IMG/VR virus record: IMGVR_UViG_2609459854_000002
Strand: one strand, 5' to 3'
Source of the DNA: a virus
Taxonomy: Duplodnaviria > Heunggongvirae > Uroviricota > Caudoviricetes
Length of the DNA stretch: 42,050 nt
Each line of letters starts with the position of its first letter. The first letter of the stretch is position 1. The notes beneath the pieces are model-generated. The model had not been told where the DNA came from. It ran no database searches and saw only the letters and a program-made list of their open reading frames with translations. The translations under genes and the position numbers were made by a program. Below, piece by piece: positions 1-42,050 of this stretch.

Positions 1-477
1 ATGAAACTCATCAGTAATGATCTGCGCGATGGCGATAAGTTGCCGCATCGTCATGTCTTTAACGGCATGGGTTACGATGGCGATAATATTTCACCGCATC
101 TGGCGTGGGATGATGTTCCTGCGGGAACGAAAAGTTTTGTCGTCACCTGCTATGACCCGGATGCGCCAACCGGCTCCGGCTGGTGGCACTGGGTAGTTGT
201 TAACTTACCCGCTGATACCCGCGTATTACCGCAAGGGTTTGGCTCTGGTCTGGTAGCAATGCCAGACGGCGTTTTGCAGACGCGTACCGACTTTGGTAAA
301 ACCGGGTACGATGGCGCAGCACCGCCGAAAGGCGAAACTCATCGCTACATTTTTACCGTTCACGCGCTGGATATAGAACGTATTGATGTCGATGAAGGTG
401 CCAGCGGCGCGATGGTCGGGTTTAACGTTCATTTCCACTCTCTGGCAAGCGCCTCGATTACTGCGATGTTTAGTTAA
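1..477 (+). CDS. ybhB: YbhB-like PEBP-family protein (host gene flanking the prophage)
   Basis: Complete 158-codon ORF from the supplied track; translation recognised from memory as E. coli YbhB; ends about 90 bp before the att core. Confidence 0.85.
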   Translation: MKLISNDLRDGDKLPHRHVFNGMGYDGDNISPHLAWDDVPAGTKSFVVTCYDPDAPTGSGWWHWVVVNLPADTRVLPQGFGSGLVAMPDGVLQTRTDFGKTGYDGAAPPKGETHRYIFTVHALDIERIDVDEGASGAMVGFNVHFHSLASASITAMFS

Positions 478-938: not shown

Positions 939-2048
939 CTAACTACACTTCGCAGTTAATTTATCACCTCTAAACTTTCTCCAATAACCTCTTATTATTT
1001 TATTTGAAGGCACTTCTATAACCTTGAATGAGATTATTGATACAATAATAGAAACCAATAAAGAAAATGCTATATACATTAACATCTCACACAAATTATC
1101 AGTGTCAGGGTTTAATATCTTAGTTATTACCTGTATTATCATCCAATGGAAAATGTAAAATGAGAAAGAGGCTTCACCAAGCAAAACCATAAATCTATTT
1201 TTAAGTATCTTAGATAAGACGCCACCATTAAAAGCAAATGCAATAACTATAAACGCCATGCAAGGGATATATAGAACATCATATTTTATGTTCATATATG
1301 TGATATAGTTTGTTGCTACATATATTGTCAAAAACAATGACAACACCGATGCGATCTCAAGTATACTGCAAACAGTATAGTTGATTTTTACATCACTATT
1401 AATAAACACCCTACAGATCAGCATTCCTATAATGAAATCGCCAATTCTAAATGATGGATTTATATAAAACAACCAATGCTGTGATATAGCTGATGGTGGA
1501 TTAATTAAATAATAAAAATTAATCGCAAGCACAAATAATAGCACACAAGTTAAATGCTTTGTCTTTAGCCTTGTTAATAAGCAAAATGCAACGTAGAAAA
1601 ACATCTCACATGAGATGCTCCATGAAACGGAATTAAAGGAAAAGTAATAATCCTGTAATGGAATAAATGATTGTAGTAATAATATATTTGAAATAAGCAT
1701 TCCATTATTAATACCATCAATACCCTTACCATGCATAAATATTAAAATAAAACAAATAAGCGCCACTATATGCACAGGGAATATTCTTGCAATCCTGTAT
1801 ACAATAAAATCTTTATTGCTAAATCTCTCTTTTTTTATATGATTTGTGAAGCTATAGTTTATAATGAAACCTGAAAGAATGTAGAAAAACGTTACACCTA
1901 TGTAACCGTTAAAAAAATACTTTGCCGCAGTATTAAACATACCAATAGATGATTGAGATAATAACCCAAGGTGACTAACGAAAACACCAAGGGCTGCAAA
2001 CATTCTCAACGATGTAAGACTTTGAATTATATTGCCTTTATTATTCAT
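939..2048 (-). CDS. Acyltransferase family 3 integral membrane protein (O-antigen acetylase-like lysogenic conversion candidate)
   Basis: 369-aa ORF, visibly AT-rich relative to neighbours; many hydrophobic segments; N-terminal region LTSLRMFAALGVFVSHL resembles the conserved start of acyltransferase-3 (Oac-like) proteins. Family call from memory. Confidence 0.7.
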   Translation of the reverse strand: MNNKGNIIQSLTSLRMFAALGVFVSHLGLLSQSSIGMFNTAAKYFFNGYIGVTFFYILSGFIINYSFTNHIKKERFSNKDFIVYRIARIFPVHIVALICFILIFMHGKGIDGINNGMLISNILLLQSFIPLQDYYFSFNSVSWSISCEMFFYVAFCLLTRLKTKHLTCVLLFVLAINFYYLINPPSAISQHWLFYINPSFRIGDFIIGMLICRVFINSDVKINYTVCSILEIASVLSLFLTIYVATNYITYMNIKYDVLYIPCMAFIVIAFAFNGGVLSKILKNRFMVLLGEASFSFYIFHWMIIQVITKILNPDTDNLCEMLMYIAFSLLVSIIVSIISFKVIEVPSNKIIRGYWRKFRGDKLTAKCS

Positions 2049-2118: not shown

Positions 2119-3915
2119 TTAGAACTCCTTCACATCTGCGCCAGAAGACACGCTCCAGATCGAAACAGGCGACCCGTTTACACCTATTAACCTTGCTTTC
2201 AACCCATTTCCGCTTGCTCTTGGTACGGTTAAATTTGCAACAGATGGATTTATAGCCCAATCTCCACCATTTAATATGACACTCATTTCAACTACGCCAC
2301 CATTATCAATATCTATTATAGGTGTTTGCACTACCGGGCTTTGTTGATCAATTGGCAGAAAGCCATTGACAATAATAGATGGTCTGAATGATGGGTTTCC
2401 CTGAACGCTAACACGAAGTTGCCCACCCTTAACAAATTCTGTTGCACAAGTATTCATGACAATGCAATACGGATTTACAAAATCAAATGCATAGCAAATT
2501 GACTCCCCATCCATTGGCGTGCAGTTTTCAGCAGTACAATTGGTCATGGTAGTATATTGCATTCCTGACATTCTAAATGACAACTGGTAACCGTTAACCT
2601 GAACAAGGCGCATATCCATAGAAGTGCCTATTACTTTTATTTGACCATCCCTAAAATCTTCAAATAAAACTCCAGCATATCCTTTCCCTGGATATTGTGG
2701 GAAACCGACCATTTCCATTACGCCAGAGAACGGCACATAAGAGAAGCATCCGATATAAGCACATTCAAAAATTGACTGTCTGATAACTGGTGCTGCTGAT
2801 TTTCCTAAAAACAGTCCGTAATAATTTCTATAAGAATCTACGTTTTCTTGTGTTAAGCCAAGCCTTCTAAACATGCAGTTTTCAACTCTACCGTTAACAC
2901 AAAATGAACTCATTGAGTTATCTGTTAGATCCCATTGCTTTGGTATAAAAGCACATAATGCATCCACCTGAAGAATTACTTCTCCATTTTTTGTGAGATC
3001 TATTTTGTCATTTGTTGTTTTATAAAAAACTGTCGCTTCAGCCTTTCCCTGTCCTCTAATTCCCATATTGTCATAAATTGGGATTGTTTTTGATGTATTT
3101 ATGTTTCCAGCAGGAGCCTCTAGAATGCATTTGTTTGAGCGGGCAAAGTTAGTTGCAAGAGTTATAGCTGTTGCGTTATCTGTGACTCCGTCAGGTTTCA
3201 CCCCCCAAAATTGCATGTCGTAAGTGGTAAAATTAATTCGTCTCCATACCATCGTTCCAGTTTCTGGCTTGATTACAATTCCACCATCATCAGCCCACGC
3301 CTGAATGTTATCAACAGACTCGAAAAAGCCGCCACCAAGGTGGTTTTCAGCATGTGTAGTGCTAGCTGCTGATGCTACGTATACAATCTGCCCCGCCTCC
3401 TCTGGAACACAGGAGCGAAGCTCTGAAAGATTGAGAAAGCGGCCAATAGCGTTAAATCCTGTTTTATCAATTAATGAATCATGTGTAGCTTTCAAGATCT
3501 CCAGCTCAATCTTTACGGTTGTGCCTCCATAACCAACCAGAGATGCGCCATCAGGGCCAGAAAGCTCAGCCCTTAACTGGTCTGGAGAATATTTCAGTAG
3601 ATCAGGATAATAGAATTGTTGTGCGCCATACGCATCATATACAGCCATGGAGTGATTCTGTACAGTTACGAACTTGGCAATCTGTCCGTTATATACCGGA
3701 TATCCAGCAGCGTTAATGATGATTGGTTGAGAAACAGGAACGTGCGAGCCGTCTTCGTTCTCTACATAAACCTGAATCTGGTTTTCTGGATTTACCGGGT
3801 CAGTGTCAACCTGACCGATATAAATTTTGCCATTGGCTACGGCTTTAAAAGAACGCGCCATAGTGAAGAGTTGCGAAGGCATCGATACGATCACATTGGC
3901 TGTAATGTCTGTCAT
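2119..3915 (-). CDS. Tailspike protein (P22 gp9-like head-binding domain, distinct receptor-binding body)
   Basis: 598-aa ORF; first ~110 residues ([59 protein letters not shown]...) closely match the P22 tailspike N-terminus as I recall it; the remainder does not match the P22 endorhamnosidase domain. Confidence 0.85.
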
Positions 3916-12938: not shown

Positions 12939-13439
12939 TTATTCGCTCCCGTTATCGCAAGGTTCCTTCCGGTGGAAGTAATTCCAACCGTTCCACTTCG
13001 CCAACTGATTACCGCTACCAACAGGCATACGGTTTGGATAACCGGACTTACATTTAGCGGCTTTTGCTCTGTCCATTGCAGACAGTTTGACGAGTCGCTC
13101 TTTCCCGTATCTGGCAGTGGTTATAAGTTTTGCTGACGCTTCCAGCGCATAATCCGGAGCAATGCGGCAGGCAAGGTTGAAAATGACGGCATTGATAGCG
13201 TTATTTGATAAACCGTGCTCATCGCCAGGATCCGGAGCGACATCTGCATCAGCGAAAATGTAGCCAACGTTGATACCAGGTGACGCATCACCTCCAAGCC
13301 ATTCAGCCATCATCATTTCAAGGTCGTTGACGCCGTCTTCCATAGACTGCGGTTCGACATCGGTTAACGTGGCATTTGATGCCACACCGAGCTTACGTAA
13401 TGCCGCAAGGACTAAATCACCCTTCGTTGTCAGGTTCAT
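12939..13439 (-). CDS. Tail adaptor protein, P22 gp4-like
   Basis: Internal start [33 protein letters not shown] matches the P22 gp4 N-terminus as recalled; track ORF extends upstream to 13514. Confidence 0.8.
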
Positions 13440-13653
13440 CTGCTGCCGCCTTAGGTTTTCGACCAGGCTTTTTACGCTGTTTTTCTTCTGGCTCTGGCTC
13501 TGGCTCTGCAACATCCTTCAAAAGGTCATCAGGATGTGAAAACCAGCCAGCATCCAGATATTCCTGAAGCTCTTCGGCTTTCACGATTTCAAAGTCGTAG
13601 CCAACGCCTTTCCATTTCTTCATGTCGCCATGACGAAAGATCATGTGTGTCAT
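13417..13653 (-). CDS. Small hypothetical protein with (Glu-Pro) repeat and basic tail
   Basis: ORF between coat and gp4-like genes; probable start [10 protein letters not shown] at 13653; contains [20 protein letters not shown] encoded by a GGCTCT repeat. Confidence 0.4.
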
Positions 13654-13697
13654 GCTTGTCTCCAGATAAAAACGGGAGCCGAAGCTCCCTCTGGTTA

Positions 13698-14993
13698 TCA
13701 CGCGGTCTGGTTAGGCAGACCAACACCAATTGCCTCTGGCCGTACAGCACATGCTGAATACCACACAGCAATACGGCACTTGCCAGACAGAGTGTTGATA
13801 TCACCCTGCGTTGCGAAGATGCCGTTAACACCAATGCCAGGAATGCTGAAGGAAGAAGTTTTCATGCCAGCAAACAGTTCATGGGTTACCGGGATCGGCT
13901 GAGACAGCAGGCGGATTGAGTCATCAGCCCAGAACACGTTAGCGGTGGTTGTTGCCACGTTCAGAACGTTTACCGGAGTGGTATCAGCAAGAGAGGTGTT
14001 TACGTTAGCGTAAGCCTTCTCTTCTTTTGTCAGTGACGCGTCATCCAGTGCAATCGGCTTCGGCGTGATTTCGATGTGAGTACTATCGATCACACGGGTG
14101 ATTGAGAAAGTCGCATCATCAGTTAGCACGTTCTTCGCCATCTGAGACAGGAATTTCACACCAGTGAAGCTGATTTTGTCTCCGCGCTTAAATCCGGTGG
14201 TGGAGGATACGGTCACCGTTGCAACACGGTTATCGACGTTCTCTTTGTTACCATCGGTATCAAGGGTGTATGCCTGCGGCTTAAACTTCTGCGCACCAGA
14301 AACAGTTACACCAGTAGCGGTTGACTTGGTAACTGCCGGAAGTTTCGGTGAGCGAAGAATTTCATCAAAGCCAGCAATCTGACGCTGAATAGTACCGTTG
14401 CGATACGCGTCTTCAGGAACGCGCCCAAAGATGTCACCATCTACCAGGTTGCGGCCTGCTTTGCGGTAATCGTCAGGGTTCAGGAAGTAACTGATGCCCA
14501 TATCGCGGTTTAGCTCACGGGAGAACATCAGGCGCTCTGCATCAGACACAAAATCCCAGCCAGACAGGCCAGTAGATGGACCAATTGCGCGGGTATCGTG
14601 AACAACAAGTGAGCCCATTTCGGTTGCCTGTTTGGCAATTGCTGACTCAATGTTATTCGCCAGTTTTTTGGCGGATGCCTGGATGCGGCGACGGTAAGAA
14701 CGCTCATCACGCAGGTCATCTGCACGAAGCTCGAAGAAATCGTTATCCGGATCGCCCATGTTGCATTTCACGGAGAGTTCCAGAATCCCTGTTGCGTTGC
14801 CAGTTAAATCCCAGCCAGTCTGGGTTGGCGATTCCTGCTCAACAGGCATCCACACGGTGTTGCTTGAACGCTGCATGGATTCTGCCGGAGGGGTGTATTT
14901 TGTCACTTTGGACGCCATTGGCGTCAGGTTCTGGACGGTTTCGATGATTTCATCGATAGCGTAAGTAACTAACTGCCCTTCTTTGAGAGTCAT
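13698..14993 (-). CDS. Major capsid (coat) protein, P22 gp5-like
   Basis: 431-aa ORF; long near-identical stretches to the P22 coat protein as recalled (e.g. [34 protein letters not shown]). Confidence 0.9.
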
Positions 14994-15060
14994 ATATTGA
15001 ATACCTTACTTTCTTTATGTGCTATACTATTGTTATATCAACATATAGCGCATTAGGGTT

Positions 15061-15582
15061 ATGAGCATGGAACTGAATGAATACTTCGAATACCGCGATG
15101 GTTCTTTGGTTTGGAAAGCCAGAAGCTCTGAATTTTTCAACAACAAAAAGAATCGCAACTATCACAACGTTTGGAATGCAAAACACGCTGGGAAAGTTGC
15201 TGGTCTTTTAGAAAGCAATGGATATATCCGCATAAGAATTAACGGCATTAAGTGGCTAGCACACCGCATCGTATGGGTAATGTTTAACGGAGATATTCCA
15301 GAAGGCATGGAAATTGACCATATAAATGGGATTCGCCACGACAACAGAATTGAAAATCTTCGTCTTGTGAAAAAATCAGCAAACCAAAGGAATAGAATCA
15401 AACTATCTAAAAATAACTCCAGCGGAATATCTGGAGTTTACTTTTGCAACACGCGGAAAAGATGGATCGCTCATAAGCGACTGCTTAATGCAAGAGTGCA
15501 AAAAGTATGTTCTTCATTCGAAGAGGCGAAAGAAGTAATCAGAAAGTTTGACGAGGAAAACAACATCACGATATCGAAATAA
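15061..15582 (+). CDS. HNH homing-endonuclease-like protein with AP2-type domain
   Basis: 173-aa AT-rich ORF antisense to the late operon, between coat and scaffold genes; HNH motif region EIDHINGIRHDNRIENLRLV...NQRN and downstream SGISGVYF...RWIA (AP2-like). Confidence 0.75.
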   Translation: MSMELNEYFEYRDGSLVWKARSSEFFNNKKNRNYHNVWNAKHAGKVAGLLESNGYIRIRINGIKWLAHRIVWVMFNGDIPEGMEIDHINGIRHDNRIENLRLVKKSANQRNRIKLSKNNSSGISGVYFCNTRKRWIAHKRLLNARVQKVCSSFEEAKEVIRKFDEENNITISK

Positions 15583-16494
15583 TTATCGAATTCCTTTATT
15601 CAGTTGCGCCTTAAGCTTGCGGTACGTCTCTACATCCCCTTTGTTTGCTGCCGCTTCCATCTGCTTTTCAATCGCAGAGATATTTGCAGCAACAGCGTGT
15701 CCCTGAATGGGTTCATCAGGTAACGGGGCTTCTGAAACAGGCTTGGCTCGAGGCTTGAGAGTTAAACGTTCTGACAGTCGAGTTAGTTCAATCAGCGCGG
15801 ATTGCCCGTCCATCGCCAGTAACTGGCGTGTCTTCTCAGGATTAGCACCAAGGTGATACATGAGAGCAGCGGATTTCTCCGGGAAGAGGCGCATGATGTT
15901 GGCACCGACTGCTGGCGGCACCAGTTGCATGAATGCATCCTCTTTCTCCTGATAGTCATGGATATTGAGCTTTTCCGCTGCGTCGTAGTGCTTACGGGCT
16001 GCCTCGACGTATTGCGCTGATTGCTGGGTGAACTCCTGAGTTTTGCGACCCTGCTCGGCGACAGCCTGGCTTCGTGCGTCCATAGCCTTGATCTGCCATT
16101 CACTGTTTGCCTGCTGGAAGGCAGCCAGTGCGCGACTCTGGTCATAGTCGTACTTAGCCAGTGCATCTTCGGAAAGATAATCGTTAGGGTCTGGTTGTTT
16201 TGGTAACTCAGGGTTCACCCGCAGGTGCTCCGGCAACTCTCCACGCTTAACCGCTTCCATCTGCTGCTCAAGCTCACGCTGGCGTTTGCGTTCAATGCGG
16301 CGACGGGCAAATTCAGCATTAGTTGCCGGGTCTTGTTTTGGTTTCTCATCGTCTTTCAGGACAATCTCGAAGCCTTCTTCCTGACCTGCGTTGTCGTTGG
16401 CATTATCGACAACTAAGCCATCAGCAGATGCCGCTGCATGATTGCCGGGCAGGGTTAATTCTTCAGAAGCCTGAATGTCGGTGGTTTGGTTCAT
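15583..16494 (-). CDS. Scaffolding protein, P22 gp8-like
   Basis: 303-aa ORF, same length as P22 gp8; C-terminus ...[17 protein letters not shown] matches the coat-binding helix-turn-helix end of gp8 as recalled. Confidence 0.85.
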
Positions 16495-16507: not shown

Positions 16508-18676
16508 TTATTGAGGTGTCTCGGCTACTCCGCCGGAGGGGATTTGAACTTGACGCATAAGATTCGCGAAATCCATGCGTTGTGAATGAGTCTGGTCTGC
16601 ATCTTTAAGAAGCAGCTCAGCGTTAGCACGAGCATCTTTGCTGCGCTGTTGCTGGAATTGACCTACGAGCTTGAGGTACTCACGCAGTTCTGCCTGCTTG
16701 TCGAGGTCCATATTGTTGAAGATTTCTGCAATCTTCGCGGCGTTGAGTTGGTTTTGGGCTTCAACCTTGGCAGCTTCAACCTGAATCTGCGCCTGTTGGT
16801 TCTCTGCCTTGAGCAATTCAGCCTGACCTTGCAGAAGGATACCCTGCGCCTGAATTTGCTCTGCTGATGGCTGCTGCGGCTGCTGTTGCGCCTGTTGTAC
16901 CATCTCCATCTCTTCAGGTGTTTCTGGTTTCTTCAGCCCCATCATCACCAGTTGCTTGTTCGCGTACTCTCGCATCATCTCGACGCCTTTACCGTCAAGC
17001 AGCGTGAAGTATTGCAGCATCAGCATCTGGAACTCTGGAGTACCTTGCGGAACCTTTGTTAGCAACTCCTGAATCTCTGCGCGATTCTGTTCCTTCATGC
17101 TCTGGAAGGATGGTCCAACGTCTGTATAGCACTCATAGCGACCGCGAATGTCGTTGAGTGTGACCACATTGCCGGACTGGTAATCGACAACTTGCGCATA
17201 GAGTTGAACGTCTTTCTCGCTTCCATCTTCAAGTGTCAGCGTTACATGACGAGGAACGTCATAAATATCATTGACCATTGAGGCATAAATCTCGCCATCA
17301 CGTCGCATTGCGGTAGCCAGGTTATCCTGAAACACGTATGTCTCAAGGTCTGCCCGCATGTTCAGTTGATTGACGGTATCGAAAGCGACCTGAGAGTTTG
17401 CTGCCTGCGCATCCACACCAAGACTAGCCACCTCTTTCACTGCGTTGGTGGCAGCCTCAAGCATGTAAGCGTTGGCTTGCGGCACTTCAGGGTTTTCCAT
17501 GTAGGAGATTGGACCAATCGGCAGGTCGTTACCGTTTTCATCGGTCCTGTTCTGCAGATAGTACGGATAGTCATCATTTCCACCGTACATGTATTCGTAG
17601 CCTTCGATTTGCTCAGGGAAGAAGGTCGGTTTCTTCTTCGGTGAACGAGCAACAATATCGGCGTTGAACGACATGATCATGTTACGAAGGCGTTGACCGT
17701 CTTTCGTCAGCCTTACCACTCCTTCGTAGCACTCCTTGTCACCAGCGAATGACCATTCGCCATACACTGGAACGATTGGAATATGCTCTCCGGCTATCTT
17801 CTCGCGGTCTTTCAGTATCTGCGTGCAGGTGATAATCGACTTATACACACGCCGACGCTTCACCTTACGCTCTGCTACCTTAATGAATCCACGATTAGCC
17901 AGGTCGTCGATGACGTCTTTGATATCCTGCTGGTAATAGCTGACTGGCTCACCTGTCAGTGGGTCGCGGTAGATGAAGACTTTCTCTTTCTTCTCTTCGA
18001 CCTCGTAATACTCAGCGACGTAGACGACATCATTCGATACCCACGGAAACAGCCATGTATCGTTCGGATTCTGGAAAGATGGCAAGGTGTCCGGATCAAT
18101 ACCGTAATCCTCTGCGAACTCTTTCCAGCCATTGCGCGACAAGGCGTTAATCACCGTGCAGTGCTTAGCGTCGCTCTTATCCATCTGCTTGCTGTTGGCG
18201 TCCCATATGACGTGTGAGCAGGCTTCATGAATTGGCAGGCGTCGAATTACCTGATTGTTGCTTGTTGGATCGTTGTCTTCGTACTGCGTGACCAGACGCC
18301 ATGCACCAACGCCGGACTCTATCTGCTCACGAACGCCAACGTTAACGGCAATTTTTGCCGTGTTATGGCGCATATCAGTACGATACATCCCCATCAGCAC
18401 ATCGGCAGCATCAGGATTAGCGCCGTCTTTGGGTCGGAAGAGAACGTCGATAGGGTTCCGGCGCATCTCTGCGACCAGTTTCCTGACCACCGGGCGAACA
18501 ACATCGAATTGTCCACGATATTGCAGGGTGGTGTAGTTTGATAGCCAGTCATCCCATTGGCTTATGCGACTGAAGTATAAATCGTTAGAAGCTTCTGTTC
18601 TCGCCTCGTCGGAAGACATCCAATCAACATCGAATGCTTGCAGTATCTTATTTAATCGCTCTGCGTTGTCAGTCAT
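16508..18676 (-). CDS. Portal protein, P22 gp1-like
   Basis: 722-aa ORF (P22 gp1 about 725 aa) upstream of scaffold; Gln-rich C-terminal region typical of the P22 portal barrel. Confidence 0.85.
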
Positions 18677-18726
18677 AACTTTACCGTGATAAAATCAATG
18701 GGACAACTTCAACAGGAGATTCTATT

Positions 18727-19227
18727 GTGAGCCATCCATCTATAGAAGATATAAGGAAAAATTTCACATACGATGCTGAAACCGGAATTTTGTACGCGGC
18801 TAATCGCACAAGGAGGACAGACCTTAACGGCAAGCCCGTTGGGTGCCAGCATGGAAACGGATACCTTGATGTAAGGCTTGGTAAAAAACTGTACTACGTG
18901 CACAGAATTTGTTTTGCGCACTACTATGGTTACTGGCCCGAAGCAGTAGATCACATAAACGGAAACCGTGCTGATAACCGCATCTGTAATCTTAGAGATG
19001 CCAATAAGCAGTTGAACGGACTAAACCGTGGCATGGATTGCGACAATTCAACTGGATACAAAGGAGTTTCCTATCGCAAGGACACAAATAACTACATGTG
19101 GCAATTTGTGGTAGAAGGCAAGAAATACACAAAAAGCGGATTCGCTACAGCATTAGATGCATACAAGCATAAGGTAGCATTTATTAACGCTCTGAATTCC
19201 GCTGCCTCTGAATTTCTCAAGCCGTAA
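18727..19227 (+). CDS. HNH homing-endonuclease-like protein with AP2-type domain (paralogue of 15061..15582)
   Basis: 166-aa ORF starting at GTG with AGGAG 8 nt upstream; antisense between portal and terminase large subunit; motifs VDHINGNRADNRICNLR and TGYKGVSY shared with the other HNH gene. Confidence 0.75.
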   Translation: MSHPSIEDIRKNFTYDAETGILYAANRTRRTDLNGKPVGCQHGNGYLDVRLGKKLYYVHRICFAHYYGYWPEAVDHINGNRADNRICNLRDANKQLNGLNRGMDCDNSTGYKGVSYRKDTNNYMWQFVVEGKKYTKSGFATALDAYKHKVAFINALNSAASEFLKP

Positions 19228-19236
19228 CAACAGTAT

Positions 19237-20739
19237 CTATCTTGTTGACCGTGCGATGGGCCTGATTGGGGCTGGTATCTTTTTCTCTTTTGGTTTTTTG
19301 ATGTCGCGCATCATTTTTGCGAAGCGGCGCATCATGTATGCATAGCGAACGGCGGAGAGAACGTCATCGTTAAGCTTGACGATTTTCCCGTTTTCATCAC
19401 GGTGATAGAGGCGGAACTCCTCAAAGAATGGCTCACAGGTGTTGAATACTTTGAAGCGGCCATCAAGCATCATGTCGCGCAATTCAGTGATTCCAGGCTC
19501 CACAGCATTACCGCCATCAGGCCATGTCGCATGCTCCTGCAACATCATAAAACCAGCGTCTGCATACTGCCCTTTGAGCTGCTCACCTCCGCCCTTCTCA
19601 TGCTGGTTTCCGTCATGAGGCCATGCGGTTGGCACTTTATGCGCCCATGATTTAACAGCTCCCCATGCCTGAACAGCTGTTTTTTCTTTCGCCTTCCACA
19701 CGCGTGAAACGTAGATTGTGTCTGCGTCCTTATCCCACCAAAGCTGAACCTGCGCCTGTGGGTGATCCCATCCGAAATCCATCCCGCCAATTACGTAGAA
19801 GTGATCAGGACACTCGAACGGCTGACACTTAATCGTCTCTTCCGGTATCTGGAAGATTCGACCACTACCCATCGTAGGAATACCGCGAGCACGCGCTTCT
19901 CTCTCATGCTCAGGATAGGATGCGATGATTTGCTCTTTCTGCTCGTCGGTGTAGTGCTCAGCGTCATAGATGGTCATGTTGACCACTTTCTGCGACTTGC
20001 TGGGATTCTTCAGGAACTTGGTAACAACGTCAGACATCCCCATCAGCGGGGTAAACGTCAGAATTGAGAATTGACCGTATTTGTTGGTACGGGTAAGACC
20101 TTCGCCATAAATGCTGTATGGTGGTTCTTCGTCAAACCACACGCCGTGGATTGTGTCACCCTGCCAGCGAGCACGGCCTTGCGAGTATGGTTTGAAGTAG
20201 CAGATTGAAATGCCATCTTCAACGCCATCAGCCGTGTGATGCTTAACCAGAAGATGATCAACAAGGTTCGGAAAGAAAGGAGACTTCTTCCAGCTAATGA
20301 TGTCCTCTTTCGGTATGGAACCGTAGCCTGGCTCATCATTCTCTTCGATACGACCGCACAGGATGCGTTGAGTCGTTTTGGTTACCGTCTCGTTTGTCTC
20401 GCCGCCAATCCAGAAGACAACAGGCTCATAGAAACGCTTACCTTTCCACTCCCCGCCATATTTACCATCAGCAGGATAGCCTTTTGTGCCCGGATAACGC
20501 CCGGTAAGGTGAAACGCGACTTCAGCAGCACCAGTAAATGACTTACCAAGCTGGTTACCAGCCATAAAACAGCGCTCTGGATAGTCATGCCCGGCGTCGA
20601 TGAACTCACGCTGTTTGCTGTATGGCGTAAATTCATATAGCAGGTGTGTGTTCCGGTAGTTCTCTTCTTCTTCGAGTAGCTCGAGCAATTCGATTTGCTC
20701 TTCGTCGCTCAGGTTATCAAGAATCGCGTCCAGTTCCAC
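19237..20739 (-). CDS. Terminase large subunit, P22 gp2-like
   Basis: 500-aa ORF immediately downstream of, and overlapping, the small subunit gene; size matches P22 gp2. Confidence 0.85.
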
Positions 20740-24374: not shown

Positions 24375-24450
24375 TGGTGCTGGTTAACGGACTTGAACCG
24401 CTACCCATTCGCTTACAAGGCGACTGCTCTACCATTGGAGCTAAACCAGC
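24375..24450 (-). tRNA. tRNA, anticodon UGU (Thr) by manual fold
   Basis: Minus-strand sequence GCTGGTTTAGCTCCAATGGTAGAGCAGTCGCCTTGTAAGCGAATGGGTAGCGGTTCAAGTCCGTTAACCAGCACCA folds as a cloverleaf with 7-bp acceptor stem, canonical D and T arms, encoded CCA. Anticodon call made by hand. Confidence 0.6.
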
Positions 24451-24455
24451 ATATT

Positions 24456-24530
24456 TGGCGGGACAGCGTGGACTCGAACCACGATAAGAAGGTTAACAGC
24501 CTTCCGTAATGACCTTTATACGACTGACCC
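24456..24530 (-). tRNA. tRNA, anticodon GUU (Asn) by manual fold
   Basis: Minus-strand sequence ending ...CGTGGTTCGAGTCCACGCTGTCCCGCCA with perfect anticodon stem GAAGG/CCTTC and loop CUGUUAA; one mismatch in acceptor stem and an imperfect D stem. Confidence 0.5.
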
Positions 24531-24593: not shown

Positions 24594-25112
24594 CTAAATG
24601 GCTAATTGCATGTCAAGGCTTTTAACAGCAACATGCTTAACTTTCTCAACACGTTTACGCATTTTAAAAGCATTTTGCATTGGTTGGTACAAAACAAATA
24701 ATGACGCTTTCAGGATATCGTCAATTTCGTTTCTACAGGTTGCCAGTGAAGGTTTTCTCCATCCCTCGCCACCGCGTCCACACATCTTGCGTGGCTTTGC
24801 AGTCGCGTGATAGTAGGATGCAATTGCTCTCTTAGATGAACCATGAGCGTAGTAGCTGAGGAGGATGCCAAAGGCTTTCTTGTCAATGTACATGACGGAA
24901 TCGACGACCTGAGAAATCAACATTCCATCATCATCATTGCACATTGGCCTTGTCATAACTCTTCCCGGCTCTACGCTCTCCATGAACTTCGCTATTACGC
25001 TGCTCATGCGCTTTTCAAGACGACCTGAATAAACCCATGCGCCCCACAGTTCAAGCCAGCCATTCAGCCACTCGTGCTGTTCTTTGGTGAGGTTTAGCTC
25101 TCTTATGCTCAT
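24594..25112 (-). CDS. Late-gene antiterminator, Q-like (phage 21/82-type family; tentative)
   Basis: 172-aa ORF directly upstream of the tRNA/lysis block and downstream of ninH, the position of Q; sequence not lambda-Q-like. Family call is mainly positional. Confidence 0.5.
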   Translation of the reverse strand: MSIRELNLTKEQHEWLNGWLELWGAWVYSGRLEKRMSSVIAKFMESVEPGRVMTRPMCNDDDGMLISQVVDSVMYIDKKAFGILLSYYAHGSSKRAIASYYHATAKPRKMCGRGGEGWRKPSLATCRNEIDDILKASLFVLYQPMQNAFKMRKRVEKVKHVAVKSLDMQLAI

Positions 25113-34259: not shown

Positions 34260-34967
34260 ATGGATTTGAATAAATTCGATGAGCCATTCAGCCCTGAAGA
34301 TATCGAATGGCGAATACAGCAAAGCGGTAAAACACGCGATAGCAAGGTGTGGGCTATGGTGCTGGCTTATGTCACGAACCGGGCAATCATGAAGCGCCTG
34401 GACGATGTTTGCGGCAAAGCAGGATGGCGCAATGAATACCGCGATATTCCCAACAACGGCGGAGTTGAATGCGGCATATCAATCAAGATTGATTCCGAAT
34501 GGGTAACCAAATGGGATGCTGCTGAAAACACGCAGGTAGAAGCCGTCAAAGGCGGTCGTTCCGGTGCAATGAAGCGCGCTGCCGTTCAGTGGGGAATCGG
34601 TCGGTATCTGTATAACCTTGAGGAAGGTTTTGCACAAACATCTCTCGATAAAAAGCAGGGATGGCACAGGGCAAAACTGAAGGATGGAACAGGATTTTAC
34701 TGGCTCCCTCCATCGCTGCCGGGATGGGCAATCCCAGCATCAGATAACAAACCATCACCAGAAAATACCAACCAGAAATCTCCATCGGTTGACTGCGAAC
34801 AAATCCTGAAAGACTTCAGCGATTATGCGTCAACAGAAACTGACAAGAAAAAACTCATCGAGCGTTATCAGCGTGACTGGCAATTAATGGCTGGCAACGA
34901 GGAAGCGCAGGCTAAATGCGTTCAGGTAATGAACATCAGAGTTAACGAACTAAAACAGGCGGCATAA
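34260..34967 (+). CDS. Rad52-family single-strand annealing protein
   Basis: 235 aa; motif ...KRAAVQWGIGRYLYNLE... is characteristic of Rad52/Sak-type phage recombinases (from memory). Confidence 0.65.
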   Translation: MDLNKFDEPFSPEDIEWRIQQSGKTRDSKVWAMVLAYVTNRAIMKRLDDVCGKAGWRNEYRDIPNNGGVECGISIKIDSEWVTKWDAAENTQVEAVKGGRSGAMKRAAVQWGIGRYLYNLEEGFAQTSLDKKQGWHRAKLKDGTGFYWLPPSLPGWAIPASDNKPSPENTNQKSPSVDCEQILKDFSDYASTETDKKKLIERYQRDWQLMAGNEEAQAKCVQVMNIRVNELKQAA

Positions 34968-39365: not shown

Positions 39366-39584
39366 ATGTACTTGACACTTCAGGAGTGGAACGCACGCCA
39401 GCGACGTCCAAGAAGCCTTGAAACAGTTCGTCGATGGGTACGCGAGTGCAAGATATTCCCTCCTCCGGTTAAGGATGGAAGAGAGTATCTGTTCCACGAA
39501 TCAGCGGTAAAGGTTGACTTAAATCGACCAGTAACAGGTAGCCTTTTGAAGAGGATCAGAAATGGGAAGAAGGCGAAGTCATGA
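39366..39584 (+). CDS. xis: Excisionase
   Basis: MYLTLQEWNARQRRPRSLETVRRWVRECKIFPPPVKDGREYLFHESAVKVDLNRPVTGSLLKRIRNGKKAKS, essentially lambda Xis as recalled. Confidence 0.9.
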   Translation: MYLTLQEWNARQRRPRSLETVRRWVRECKIFPPPVKDGREYLFHESAVKVDLNRPVTGSLLKRIRNGKKAKS

Positions 39585-40632
39585 GCGCCGGGATTTACCC
39601 CCTAACCTTTATATAAGAAACAATGGATATTACTGCTACAGGGACCCAAGGACGGGTAAAGAGTTCGGATTAGGCAGAGACAGGAGGATAGCAATTACTG
39701 AAGCAATACAGGCAAACATTGAGTTATTTTCAGGACACAAACACAAGCCTCTGACAGCAAGAATCAACAGTGATAATTCTGTTACGCTACATTCATGGCT
39801 TGATCGCTACGAAAAAATACTCGCCAGCAGAGGAATCAAGCAGAAGACACTCATAAATTACATGAGCAAAATTAAAGCAATAAGGAGGGGTCTGCCTGAT
39901 GCTCCACTTGAAGACATCACCACAAAAGAAATTGCGGCAATGCTTAATGGATACATAGACGAGGGCAAGGCGGCATCAGCCAAGTTAATCAGATCAACAC
40001 TGAGCGATGCATTCCGAGAGGCAATAGCTGAAGGCCATATAACAACAAACCCGGTCGCTGCCACTCGCGCAGCAAAATCAGAGGTAAGGAGATCAAGGCT
40101 TACGGCTGACGAATACCTGAAAATTTATCAAGCAGCAGAATCATCACCATGTTGGCTAAGACTTGCAATGGAACTGGCTGTTGTTACCGGGCAGAGAGTT
40201 GGTGATTTATGCGAAATGAAGTGGTCTGATATCGTAGATGGATATCTTTATGTCGAGCAAAGCAAAACAGGCGTAAAAATTGCCATCCCAACAGCATTGC
40301 ATGTTGATGCTCTCGGAATATCAATGAAGGAAACACTTGATAAATGCAAAGAGATTCTTGGCGGAGAAACCATAATTGCATCTACTCGTCGCGAACCGCT
40401 TTCATCCGGCACAGTATCAAGGTATTTTATGCGCGCACGAAAAGCATCAGGTCTTTCCTTCGAAGGGGATCCGCCTACCTTTCACGAGTTGCGCAGTTTG
40501 TCTGCAAGACTCTATGAGAAGCAGATAAGCGATAAGTTTGCTCAACATCTTCTCGGGCATAAGTCGGACACCATGGCATCACAGTATCGTGATGACAGAG
40601 GCAGGGAGTGGGACAAAATTGAAATCAAATAA
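39562..40632 (+). CDS. int: Tyrosine integrase (lambda Int-like)
   Basis: 356 aa, same length as lambda Int; N-terminus MGRRRSHERRDLPPNLYIRNNGYYCYRDPRTGKEFGLGRDRRIAITEAIQAN matches as recalled; overlaps xis as in lambda. Confidence 0.95.
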   Translation: MGRRRSHERRDLPPNLYIRNNGYYCYRDPRTGKEFGLGRDRRIAITEAIQANIELFSGHKHKPLTARINSDNSVTLHSWLDRYEKILASRGIKQKTLINYMSKIKAIRRGLPDAPLEDITTKEIAAMLNGYIDEGKAASAKLIRSTLSDAFREAIAEGHITTNPVAATRAAKSEVRRSRLTADEYLKIYQAAESSPCWLRLAMELAVVTGQRVGDLCEMKWSDIVDGYLYVEQSKTGVKIAIPTALHVDALGISMKETLDKCKEILGGETIIASTRREPLSSGTVSRYFMRARKASGLSFEGDPPTFHELRSLSARLYEKQISDKFAQHLLGHKSDTMASQYRDDRGREWDKIEIK

Positions 40633-40705
40633 TGATTTTATTTTGACTGATAGTGACCTGTTCGTTGCAACAAATTGATAAGCAATGCTTTTTTATAATA
40701 CCAAC

Positions 40706-40720
40706 TTAGTATAAAAAAGC
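40706..40720. repeat. attL core (B-O-P' junction); 15-bp lambda-type core
   Basis: TTAGTATAAAAAAGC on + strand, identical to the copy at 568..582; phage side (40633..40705) resembles the lambda P' arm, host side continues AGGCTTCA (lambda B arm-like). Confidence 0.85.
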
Positions 40721-40766
40721 AGGCTTCAACGGATTCATTTTTCTATTTCATAGCCCGGAGCAACCT

Positions 40767-42050
40767 GTGAACACATTTTCAGTTTCCCGTCTGGCGCTGG
40801 CATTGGCTTTTGGCGTGACGCTGACCGCCTGTAGCTCAACCCCGCCCGATCAACGTCCTTCTGATCAAACCGCGCCTGGTACCTCTTCTCGCCCGATTCT
40901 GTCGGCAAAAGAAGCGCAGAATTTCGATGCTCAACACTATTTTGCATCCCTGACACCAGGTGCTGCAGCGTGGAATCCTTCCCCGATTACCCTGCCTGCG
41001 CAACCTGACTTTGTTGTCGGCCCGGCGGGCACTCAAGGTGTAACGCATACCACGATTCAGGCGGCGGTAGATGCGGCAATTATCAAGCGTACCAACAAGC
41101 GCCAGTATATTGCCGTGATGCCTGGTGAGTATCAGGGAACGGTATATGTCCCTGCCGCTCCGGGTGGAATTACTCTGTACGGTACAGGTGAAAAACCGAT
41201 TGATGTGAAGATTGGGCTTTCCCTTGATGGTGGCATGAGCCCTGCCGACTGGCGTCACGACGTCAACCCGCGCGGCAAATATATGCCAGGTAAACCAGCG
41301 TGGTATATGTACGATAGCTGCCAGAGCAAACGCAGCGACAGTATCGGTGTTCTCTGCTCTGCGGTCTTCTGGTCACAAAACAATGGCCTGCAACTGCAAA
41401 ATCTGACCATCGAAAACACGCTGGGCGATAGCGTAGATGCAGGTAACCATCCGGCGGTGGCACTGCGTACTGATGGTGACCAGGTACAGATTAACAACGT
41501 TAACATTCTCGGTCGTCAGAACACCTTCTTTGTCACCAACAGCGGTGTGCAGAACCGTCTGGAAACCAACCGTCAGCCGCGTACGCTGGTGACCAACAGC
41601 TACATTGAAGGGGATGTGGATATCGTTTCTGGTCGCGGCGCAGTGGTGTTCGATAACACCGAATTCCGCGTGGTGAACTCACGTACTCAGCAAGAAGCGT
41701 ATGTGTTTGCACCGGCTACGCTGTCCAACATTTACTACGGTTTCCTCGCCGTAAACAGCCGTTTCAATGCTTTCGGTGATGGTGTGGCGCAACTGGGCCG
41801 CTCGCTGGATGTTGATGCCAATACCAACGGTCAGGTGGTGATCCGTGATAGCGCCATCAACGAAGGTTTTAACACGGCTAAACCGTGGGCCGATGCGGTG
41901 ATCTCTAATCGTCCGTTTGCGGGTAATACCGGCAGCGTAGATGATAACGACGAAATACAGCGCAATCTGAATGACACTAACTACAACCGCATGTGGGAAT
42001 ACAATAACCGCGGCGTGGGTAGTAAAGTGGTTGCAGAGGCGAAGAAGTAA
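40767..42050 (+). CDS. ybhC: YbhC-like pectinesterase-family lipoprotein (host gene flanking the prophage)
   Basis: 427-codon ORF beginning at GTG with lipoprotein signal (…LALAFGVTLTACSS…); recognised from memory as E. coli YbhC; complete, ends at window end. Confidence 0.85.
   Translation: MNTFSVSRLALALAFGVTLTACSSTPPDQRPSDQTAPGTSSRPILSAKEAQNFDAQHYFASLTPGAAAWNPSPITLPAQPDFVVGPAGTQGVTHTTIQAAVDAAIIKRTNKRQYIAVMPGEYQGTVYVPAAPGGITLYGTGEKPIDVKIGLSLDGGMSPADWRHDVNPRGKYMPGKPAWYMYDSCQSKRSDSIGVLCSAVFWSQNNGLQLQNLTIENTLGDSVDAGNHPAVALRTDGDQVQINNVNILGRQNTFFVTNSGVQNRLETNRQPRTLVTNSYIEGDVDIVSGRGAVVFDNTEFRVVNSRTQQEAYVFAPATLSNIYYGFLAVNSRFNAFGDGVAQLGRSLDVDANTNGQVVIRDSAINEGFNTAKPWADAVISNRPFAGNTGSVDDNDEIQRNLNDTNYNRMWEYNNRGVGSKVVAEAKK

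What the first reader, a model, noticed from the sequence alone, without database searches (positions are those of the whole stretch)
15061..15582. HNH-AP2 homing-endonuclease-like gene inserted antisense between coat and scaffold genes
An AT-rich plus-strand gene sits tail-to-tail against the scaffold gene inside an otherwise uninterrupted minus-strand late operon. The HNH core plus AP2-like domain is typical of free-standing homing endonucleases, which are much more familiar from virulent phages than from P22-like temperate ones. It must be transcribed against late transcription.
Basis: partly seen in the sequence, partly recalled or inferred. Interest (0 to 1): 0.55.

Follow-up and report, generated by a model that had tools for sequence, protein, structure and literature searches.

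The report
Mobile HNH nuclease gene in prophage
A small selfish nuclease gene of a well-known kind (a free-standing HNH-AP2 homing endonuclease) sits backwards between the scaffold and coat genes of a P22-like E. coli prophage, and comparison with relatives suggests it has moved between related phages; it is an ordinary kind of element in a less usual host.

Summary
A 173-aa ORF (15061-15582, +) lies antisense between the scaffold (15583-16494, -) and coat (13698-14993, -) genes of an integrated P22-like prophage. GC is 0.37-0.39 against about 0.50 in the flanks.

It matches Pfam HNH_3 (E 4e-22). The predicted fold is closest to the homing endonuclease I-HmuI, followed by an AP2-type domain; the AP2 sequence match alone is below threshold.

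It is a discrete 589-bp cassette with a conserved extended -10 element and a replacement ribosome-binding site for coat. Only 20 of 218 E. coli genomes with this head module carry it; the others have the scaffold stop overlapping the coat start (TAATG).

Carriers and non-carriers differ only in a 36-nt recoded patch in coat codons 2-13. The flanks are otherwise undifferentiated, and the cassette is 3-5 times less diverse than they are. The cassette never occurs without the patch, but the patch occurs without the cassette. Orthologues of 82, 73 and 61% identity occupy the same junction in diverged P22-like lineages, under purifying selection.

Best reading: a free-standing homing endonuclease gene. 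Nuclease activity, target and expression are inferred.

The late operon is not "otherwise uninterrupted": a second antisense HNH gene lies at 18727-19227. This is a new member of a known kind, of modest interest.

The parts
15061..15582 (+). HNH-AP2 endonuclease ORF (173 aa; possibly 171 aa from the ATG at 15067)
15256..15390 (+). HNH (His-Me finger) catalytic core, residues 66-110, including D86, H87, N99 and N108
   Evidence: The Pfam HNH_3 match covers residues 66-110. D86/H87/N108 align with D74/H75/N96 of I-HmuI. These residues are invariant in 68 homologues.
15421..15558 (+). AP2-type DNA-binding domain, residues ~121-166 (three beta strands plus a helix)
14994..15582 (.). The inserted cassette (589 nt): intergenic control region plus the ORF
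   Evidence: Alignment with the cassette-less phages IME10 and Bas106. In the 81-locus alignment, fewer than 20% of cassette-less loci have bases at 14994-15583. There are no terminal repeats and no Rfam intron.
15020..15028 (+). Candidate extended -10 promoter element TGcTATACT for the HNH gene
   Evidence: Read directly from the sequence. It is conserved at the same place in three diverged lineages: TGcTATACT in L004, TGcTATAAT in L154 and TATAAT in L008. The consensus scanner, which requires a -35 element, did not report it. Function is inferred.
15004..15009 (-). Replacement Shine-Dalgarno (GTAAGG) for coat, 10 nt upstream of the coat ATG
   Evidence: Read directly from the sequence. The block CATATTGAATACCTTAC is conserved in the diverged cassette lineages. 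Cassette-less relatives instead have the scaffold TAA overlapping the coat ATG.
14955..14990 (-). Recoded patch in coat codons 2-13: candidate target and immunity region, or co-conversion tract
   Evidence: 12 fixed and 2 near-fixed differences between cassette-bearing and cassette-less loci, and none elsewhere in coat or scaffold. dxy is 0.145 here against about 0.02 elsewhere. The patch is 82% identical to the coat 5' end of lineage L154 but only 69% identical to its own lineage's cassette-less allele.
13698..14993 (-). Coat gene (P22 gp5 family), downstream neighbour in the late operon
   Evidence: Pfam P22_CoatProtein E 1.5e-163.
15583..16494 (-). Scaffolding protein gene (P22 gp8 family), upstream neighbour in the late operon
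   Evidence: Pfam Phage-scaffold E 1.2e-177.
18677..19236 (.). Second, independent antisense HNH cassette between large terminase and portal (ORF 18727-19227, +; extended -10 TGaTAAAAT at 18687-18695)
   Evidence: HNH_3 E 2e-13. 41% identical to the first HNH over the core. 69% identical to the SEN22 HNH at the same junction and in the same orientation. Present in only 2 of 5426 E. coli genomes. About 115 nt of the portal 5' end is recoded relative to Dewey and IME10.

Best explanation
The ORF is a free-standing homing endonuclease gene of the HNH(I-HmuI-like)-AP2 class. It is carried on a 589-bp cassette inserted exactly between the scaffold stop codon and the coat start codon of a P22-like (Lederbergvirus-type) E. 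coli prophage.

Shown here:
- the domain make-up, with intact catalytic residues;
- the precise presence/absence polymorphism;
- the recoded coat 5' patch that always accompanies the cassette;
- the lack of differentiation in the flanking DNA;
- the low diversity of the cassette relative to its flanks;
- purifying selection on the protein;
- occupation of the same junction by diverged orthologues.

Inferred mechanism: the gene is transcribed from its own extended -10 promoter, against late transcription. When a carrier genome meets a cassette-less relative (co-infection, or infection of a lysogen), the enzyme nicks or cuts the cassette-less allele near the scaffold/coat junction. The most likely site is within coat codons 2-13, where carriers differ at 14 positions and would therefore be immune. 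Recombinational repair from the carrier genome then copies in the cassette with a very short co-conversion tract; the prophage encodes a Rad52-family recombinase that could serve. Because the insertion destroys the TAATG scaffold-coat overlap, the cassette supplies a replacement ribosome-binding site for coat.
For: Domains:
- Pfam HNH_3 at 78 bits.
- D86/H87/N108 align with I-HmuI D74/H75/N96 and are invariant in 68 homologues.
- The C-terminal domain has the AP2 fold, and 28 of 68 homologues hit Pfam AP2.
- PADLOC matches only 'homing endonuclease' models.

Distribution:
- 20 of 218 E. coli genomes with this head module carry the cassette.
- 12 of 81 aligned loci carry it (80 IMG/VR loci plus the window).
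- Phages Dewey and Louie carry it; IME10, HZ41, APC_JM3.2 and Bas106 do not.

Mobility signature:
- Fixed differences between carriers and non-carriers lie only at 14955-14990.
- Shared polymorphisms resume 19 nt away on the coat side and 30 nt away on the scaffold side, with 110 shared polymorphisms in coat plus scaffold.
- Diversity (pi) is 0.0038 in the cassette against 0.012-0.021 in the flanks of the same genomes.

Asymmetry: cassette without the patch occurs in 0 of 32 genomes, whereas the patch without the cassette occurs in 8 E. coli genomes and 3 IMG/VR contigs.

Site fidelity: orthologues of 82, 73 and 61% identity sit at the same junction in the same orientation, in lineages whose coat is 88, 72 and 68% identical.

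Selection: pN 0.17-0.26 against pS 0.80-0.94.

Other: GC is 0.37-0.39 against 0.50 in the flanks. There is no intron RNA and there are no transposon-like ends.
Against: - No nuclease activity, cleavage site or transcript has been observed; the target assignment is indirect.
- P22-like phages are highly mosaic, so ordinary homologous recombination could by itself decouple a passive insert from its flanks.
- HNH divergence tracks the divergence of the flanking genes (73% against 72-75%), which also fits long vertical residence.
- The patch may be imported donor sequence rather than selected immunity. It also exists without the cassette, so it could simply be the ancestral allele in which the insertion arose.
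- I-HmuI-type enzymes are nickases and can cut both intron-plus and intron-minus DNA (recalled, not checked here), so simple 'immunity by recoding' is not guaranteed.
- No sigma-70 promoter with a -35 element was found by the scanner.
Confidence: 0.72

Rival explanations
1. A competition or exclusion weapon rather than a purely selfish element; this overlaps with homing. The antisense orientation and its own sigma-70-type promoter would let the nuclease be made independently of the late operon, possibly from the repressed prophage. It would then damage incoming or co-infecting cassette-less relatives at the start of their coat gene, giving the carrier phage or lysogen an advantage.
For: Both HNH cassettes in the window, and all diverged orthologues, are antisense to the late operon and carry a conserved extended -10 element. 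The protein is under strong purifying selection over long divergence. The window is an integrated prophage, so encounters with superinfecting relatives are the natural setting.
Against: There are no expression data. Occupancy is only about 9%, which is low for a strongly beneficial trait. The PADLOC hits are only generic homing-endonuclease models. No terminator delimits the gene as it would in a classical moron.
Confidence: 0.15
2. A passive accessory insert. It was inserted once, long ago, is inherited vertically, and is shuffled or lost by ordinary homologous recombination between mosaic P22-like genomes. The nuclease plays no part in its spread, and the recoded patch is only linked ancestral variation.
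For: HNH divergence is similar to that of the flanking head genes. The patch also occurs without the cassette. P22-like genomes recombine heavily, with 110 polymorphisms shared between the two classes.
Against: 14 patch sites stay in perfect linkage with the cassette in 32 of 32 genomes, although linkage is gone 19 nt further on. The cassette is 3-5 times less diverse than its flanks. Catalytic residues and the ORF are conserved under purifying selection. Four lineages keep exactly the same site and orientation.
Confidence: 0.1
3. A packaging or morphogenesis cofactor, like the HK97 gp74-type HNH proteins that assist terminase, or a DNA-binding regulator that uses the AP2 domain to tune coat and scaffold expression.
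For: It lies inside the head-gene cluster. The insertion abolishes scaffold-coat translational coupling, so it must change coat expression in some way.
Against: About 91% of phages with a near-identical head module lack it. It belongs to HNH_3/I-HmuI-like, not the small PF01844-type terminase-associated HNH family. P22-type phages package by the headful mechanism without an HNH partner (established knowledge). The catalytic residues are conserved, which argues against a pure DNA-binding regulator.
Confidence: 0.03

Closest known systems
I-HmuI (Bacillus phage SPO1 intron-encoded HNH homing endonuclease, PDB 1U3E)
   Different: I-HmuI is encoded in a group I intron and has a C-terminal helix-turn-helix DNA-binding domain. 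The window protein is free-standing and intergenic (no intron RNA) and ends in an AP2-fold domain. Identity is only 22-24%.
HNH-AP2 homing endonuclease class (Magnani et al. 2004, as cited in PMC10448857; IPA-HNH genes of Vibrio phage ICP1)
   Same: [quoted passage not shown]
   Different: The ICP1 IPA-HNH domains are reported as too divergent to match Pfam HNH_3, whereas this protein matches HNH_3 strongly. The hosts studied there are virulent phages; this one is in a temperate P22-like prophage and is antisense to the late operon.
Salmonella phage SEN22 HNH gene between large terminase and portal (PMC5261728)
   Same: It is a P22-like temperate phage with an antisense HNH_3 gene in the late operon, described by its authors as a homing endonuclease insertion. 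It is the orthologue (69% identity) of the window's second HNH at 18727-19227.
   Different: It lies at a different junction (terminase/portal, not scaffold/coat), and the two window HNH proteins are only 41% identical over the HNH core. SEN22 has no insert at the scaffold/coat junction.
T4 free-standing homing endonucleases (Seg and Mob families; intronless homing with marker exclusion and co-conversion)
   Same: It is an intergenic nuclease gene present in some relatives and absent in others, with altered sequence next to the insertion in carrier genomes. This comparison is from established knowledge and was not tested here.
   Different: The T4 genes lie in a virulent phage, mostly co-oriented with their neighbours, and Mob proteins pair HNH with a zinc finger rather than AP2 (PMC10448857). 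Here the apparent co-conversion tract is unusually short, at about 40 nt.

Membership tests
HNH / His-Me finger endonuclease (Pfam HNH_3, I-HmuI-like) | Profile match above the curated threshold | tested here: met
   HNH_3 at 78 bits against a cut-off of 24.8, E 3.9e-22.
HNH / His-Me finger endonuclease (Pfam HNH_3, I-HmuI-like) | Catalytic Asp-His general-base pair and Asn metal ligand | tested here: met
   D86/H87/N108 align with I-HmuI D74/H75/N96 and are invariant in 68 homologues. The roles of the I-HmuI residues are recalled from the literature, not checked here.
HNH / His-Me finger endonuclease (Pfam HNH_3, I-HmuI-like) | Beta-beta-alpha-metal fold | tested here: met
HNH / His-Me finger endonuclease (Pfam HNH_3, I-HmuI-like) | Metal-dependent DNA nicking or cleavage | not testable with these tools
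   Needs a biochemical assay.
AP2 DNA-binding domain | Pfam AP2 match above the gathering score | tested here: not met
   15.7 bits for the whole protein and 17.8 bits for the C-terminal 62 aa, against a cut-off of 33.3.
AP2 DNA-binding domain | Three-stranded antiparallel sheet packed on one helix | tested here: met
AP2 DNA-binding domain | Homology through intermediate sequences | tested here: met
   28 of 68 full-length homologues hit Pfam AP2 at E<0.001, with a best E of 1.4e-11.
Free-standing homing endonuclease gene | Precise presence/absence polymorphism at one site among close relatives | tested here: met
   20 of 218 E. coli genomes, 12 of 81 aligned loci and 2 of 8 matching phage isolates carry it. 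The empty site is the TAATG overlap.
Free-standing homing endonuclease gene | Not inside an intron or intein; no transposon ends | tested here: met
   Intergenic position, no Rfam match, and no terminal direct or inverted repeats at the boundaries.
Free-standing homing endonuclease gene | Carrier genomes differ from empty genomes at or next to the insertion site (immunity or co-conversion) | tested here: met
   14 substitutions in 36 nt of coat codons 2-13, fixed between the classes. The cassette was never seen without the patch in 32 genomes.
Free-standing homing endonuclease gene | Evidence of horizontal spread across genetic backgrounds | tested here: met
   dxy equals pi outside the patch, and cassette pi is 0.0038 against 0.012-0.021 in the flanks. 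Ordinary recombination could contribute to the same pattern.
Free-standing homing endonuclease gene | Cleavage of the empty allele and super-Mendelian inheritance in crosses | not testable with these tools
   Needs an in vitro cleavage assay and mixed-infection crosses.
Terminase-associated HNH (HK97 gp74 type) | Small PF01844-type HNH next to the terminase genes of cos phages, conserved in all relatives | tested here: not met
   The family is HNH_3, not PF01844. About 91% of near-identical head modules lack the gene.
Prophage moron | Own promoter and terminator; expressed from the repressed prophage | tested here: inconclusive
   A conserved extended -10 element is present. No terminator lies downstream. 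Expression could not be tested.

The most novel reading that the evidence does not exclude
The antisense cassettes, each with its own promoter, are expressed from the repressed prophage. They would then act as sequence-specific weapons against superinfecting or co-resident cassette-less P22-like relatives, cutting at the 5' ends of essential head genes (coat and portal). Homing endonuclease genes in temperate phages would then double as a prophage-encoded exclusion or competition system, and would also rewire scaffold-coat translational coupling.
Probability: 0.15. Interest if true: 0.55.

Novelty: new member of a known kind. Interest (0 to 1): 0.3.

Why it matters
Homing endonuclease genes are best studied in virulent phages such as T4, T5, SPO1 and ICP1. 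This case gives a compact natural system in temperate, genetically tractable phages.

- Isolates with the cassette (Dewey, Louie) and without it (Bas106, IME10) already exist and share near-identical head genes.
- The putative target is confined to about 40 nt.
- Naturally occurring alleles carry the patch without the cassette and are predicted to be resistant.
- A second cassette, built the same way, lies at another junction.

That makes homing, immunity and any effect on coat:scaffold expression directly testable. It does not change what is known about the class.

Tried and rejected
- The sigma-70 promoter and terminator scan of 14800-15800 found no promoter with both hexamers for the HNH gene. 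Terminator-like hairpins were no more frequent than in shuffled sequence.
- The 8-bp hairpin inside the ORF (15415-15438) is not conserved in lineages L004 and L008, so I dropped it as a functional element.
- NCBIfam gave no hit.
- The genome-contig scan (one genome per species) returned only distant family members (49% identity or less) and no orthologue at a coat/scaffold junction, so it says nothing on host range.
- I tried GAAGGGCAG (coat codons 5-7) as a marker shared by all cassette lineages. In IMG/VR it is confined to cassette-bearing and hybrid coat alleles, but the other pattern matches were unrelated genes and diverged cassette-less coats were not sampled. It remains an observation, not a proven immunity determinant.
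- Intron-encoded and transposon explanations were rejected: no Rfam match and no terminal repeats.
- Literature searches found no description of an HNH gene at the scaffold/coat junction of P22-like phages. The Dewey/Louie genome announcement does not mention it.

Full report
**What is there**

The window is an integrated P22-like prophage.
- It is bounded by a ybhB-like PBP-family gene (1-477) and a ybhC-like pectinesterase-family gene (40767-42050).
- It carries a lambda-type integrase (39562-40632), a Rad52-family recombinase (34260-34967) and a Q antiterminator (24594-25112).
- The late operon runs on the minus strand: large terminase 19237-20739, portal 16508-18676, scaffold 15583-16494, coat 13698-14993. 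Pfam E-values are 1e-163 or better for portal, scaffold and coat.

The ORF named in the finding (15061-15582, +, 173 aa) is real.
- Its TAA stop abuts the complement of the scaffold stop codon.
- GC falls to 0.37-0.39 across it, against about 0.50 on either side.
- The claim of an 'otherwise uninterrupted' late operon is wrong. A second antisense HNH ORF (18727-19227) lies between large terminase and portal.

**What the protein is**

The N-terminal two-thirds is an HNH nuclease.
- Pfam HNH_3 matches residues 66-110 at 78 bits (cut-off 24.8), and PHROG 99 'HNH endonuclease' matches at E 1.3e-50.
- The only significant solved relative by sequence is the SPO1 homing endonuclease I-HmuI (1U3E, E 8e-4). 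D86/H87/N108 align with its D74/H75/N96, and these residues are invariant in an alignment of 68 homologues.

The AP2 assignment needs fold and homologue evidence, because the sequence alone fails.
- Pfam AP2 scores only 15.7-17.8 bits against a cut-off of 33.3.
- An AlphaFold model built on the 68-sequence alignment (mean pLDDT 89.9) ends in three strands and a helix.
- 28 of the 68 homologues hit Pfam AP2 at E<0.001.

The HNH-AP2 architecture is therefore supported. This class is described in the literature (Magnani 2004, as cited in PMC10448857). PADLOC matches only generic homing-endonuclease models.

**It is a discrete insert**

- Phages Dewey and Louie carry the same gene at 98.9% identity. 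IME10, HZ41, APC_JM3.2 and Bas106 have 96-97% identical flanks but lack it.
- In the empty genomes the scaffold TAA overlaps the coat ATG (TAATG).
- The insert is 14994-15582, 589 nt.
- It has no terminal repeats and no Rfam RNA, so it is neither a transposon nor an intron.
- Of 5426 complete E. coli genomes, 218 have this coat/scaffold module at 95% identity or more, and only 20 carry the insert.
- In the 81 aligned loci (the 80 closest IMG/VR coat loci plus the window), 12 carry it.

**Anatomy of the cassette**

The 67 nt between the coat ATG and the HNH ATG hold two elements.
- On the plus strand there is an extended -10 element, TGcTATACT (15020-15028), about 33 nt upstream of the ATG.
- On the minus strand there is a Shine-Dalgarno, GTAAGG (15004-15009), 10 nt upstream of the coat ATG. 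It replaces the lost TAATG coupling.

Both blocks are conserved in cassettes whose HNH proteins are only 61-82% identical. The -10 reads TGcTATAAT in L154, TGcTATACT in L004 and TATAAT in L008. Promoter function is inferred; the two-hexamer scanner did not call it.

The start codon may be 15067 rather than 15061.

**Signs of mobility**

I aligned the 81 loci, covering about 2.5 kb either side of coat.
- Divergence between carriers and non-carriers equals diversity within each class everywhere except the 100 nt next to the insert (dxy 0.145 against about 0.02).
- All 12 fixed and 2 near-fixed differences lie at 14955-14990, in coat codons 2-13.
- Polymorphisms shared by both classes resume at 14936 on the coat side and at 15613 on the scaffold side. 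Coat plus scaffold contain 110 shared polymorphisms.
- Nucleotide diversity is 0.0038 in the cassette, against 0.012 (scaffold), 0.021 (coat) and 0.019 (portal) in the same carrier genomes.

The cassette therefore sits on backgrounds as diverse as those lacking it, and it is younger than that diversity. This is expected for an element that has spread horizontally.

The linkage is asymmetric.
- Every one of 32 carriers has the patch.
- Eight cassette-less E. coli genomes and three IMG/VR contigs carry a hybrid coat 5' end: standard codons 1-3 followed by patch codons 4-14.
- That is the pattern expected if a cassette on an unrecoded target were self-destructive while a recoded target without the cassette were harmless.

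The patch is 82% identical to the coat 5' end of the diverged cassette lineage L154, but only 69% identical to its own lineage's empty allele. It therefore looks like imported donor DNA, that is, a co-conversion tract, which may also confer immunity.

**Long-term association with the site**

- Orthologues of 82% (L154), 73% (L004-L007) and 61% (L008) identity all sit between coat and scaffold, antisense. In those P22-like contigs the coat is 88, 72 and 68% identical to the window's.
- Between lineages pN is 0.17-0.26 while pS is saturated at 0.80-0.94. All 12 close copies have intact ORFs.
- The protein has therefore been kept functional.

**The second cassette**

- The region 18677-19236 has the same design: antisense orientation, an extended -10 (TGaTAAAAT, 18687-18695), and its 3' end near the terminase stop codon.
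- About 115 nt of the portal 5' end is recoded relative to Dewey and IME10.
- It occurs in 2 of 5426 E. coli genomes and in no phage record.
- Its orthologue (69% identity) in Salmonella phage SEN22 lies at the same junction. The authors of that genome called it a unique homing endonuclease insertion (PMC5261728).
- This parallel supports the general reading. It also shows that homing endonuclease genes in P22-like late operons have a published precedent.

**Mechanism and its limits**

The best-supported account is a free-standing homing endonuclease gene. It would cut or nick the empty scaffold/coat junction of relatives and be copied in by recombinational repair, with a very short co-conversion tract.

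Not shown here:
- nuclease activity;
- the target site;
- transcription;
- super-Mendelian inheritance.

Ordinary recombination in these mosaic phages could produce part of the population pattern. The similar divergence of the HNH gene and its flanks also fits long vertical residence.

A role in competition or exclusion when expressed from the prophage is compatible with the data but untested. A role as a packaging cofactor or regulator is unlikely, given 9% occupancy and the family assignment.

**Verdict**

The gene is already annotated as an HNH endonuclease in GenBank and RefSeq. I found no paper that describes it at this junction. It is a new member of a known kind, and a tidy, testable example rather than a surprise.

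Noticed in passing
window 18677-19236 (ORF 18727-19227, +): A second antisense HNH_3/AP2-like gene lies between large terminase and portal. It is rarer than the first (2 of 5426 E. coli genomes, no phage record), 69% identical to the SEN22 HNH at the same junction, and accompanied by a roughly 115-nt recoded portal 5' end.
   Followed up: partly
L093 (E. coli 19451123, NZ_CP191548.1) locus 13453-14037: A closely related prophage carries a third HNH endonuclease gene, this one co-oriented with the late operon, between gp4 and gp10 and next to a gp10 pseudogene fragment. The window lacks it.
   Followed up: no
L009, L010 (E. coli AVS0578, ECONIH6) coat 5' end; IMG/VR L168, L171, L195: Cassette-less 'hybrid' coat alleles (MALKEGQ...) have standard codons 1-3 followed by codons 4-14 identical to the cassette-linked patch. 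They could be resistant alleles, products of cassette loss, or the ancestral recipient allele.
   Followed up: partly
window 13493-13692: Nucleotide diversity among otherwise 98%-identical phages jumps to 0.10-0.16 just downstream of coat, over a small unassigned ORF (13417-13701, no Pfam hit). This looks like a mosaic joint.
   Followed up: no
window 24375-24530 (-): tRNA-Thr(TGT) and tRNA-Asn(GTT) genes lie inside the prophage, just downstream of the Q antiterminator gene in the direction of late transcription.
   Followed up: no
window 1-477 and 39562-42050: The prophage appears to sit between ybhB-like and ybhC-like host genes, which I recall as the lambda attachment region, and it uses a lambda-type integrase with an arm-binding domain. 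It thus combines a P22-like head module with lambda-like integration.
   Followed up: no
window 15415-15438: A perfect 8-bp inverted repeat lies inside the HNH ORF at the HNH/AP2 linker. On the late-operon strand it is followed by a T-rich run and looks like a terminator, but it is not conserved in the diverged cassettes.
   Followed up: yes
window 939-2048 (-): An Acyl_transf_3 family acyltransferase gene lies next to the tailspike gene (2119-3915). It may be an O-antigen-modifying lysogenic conversion gene.
   Followed up: no
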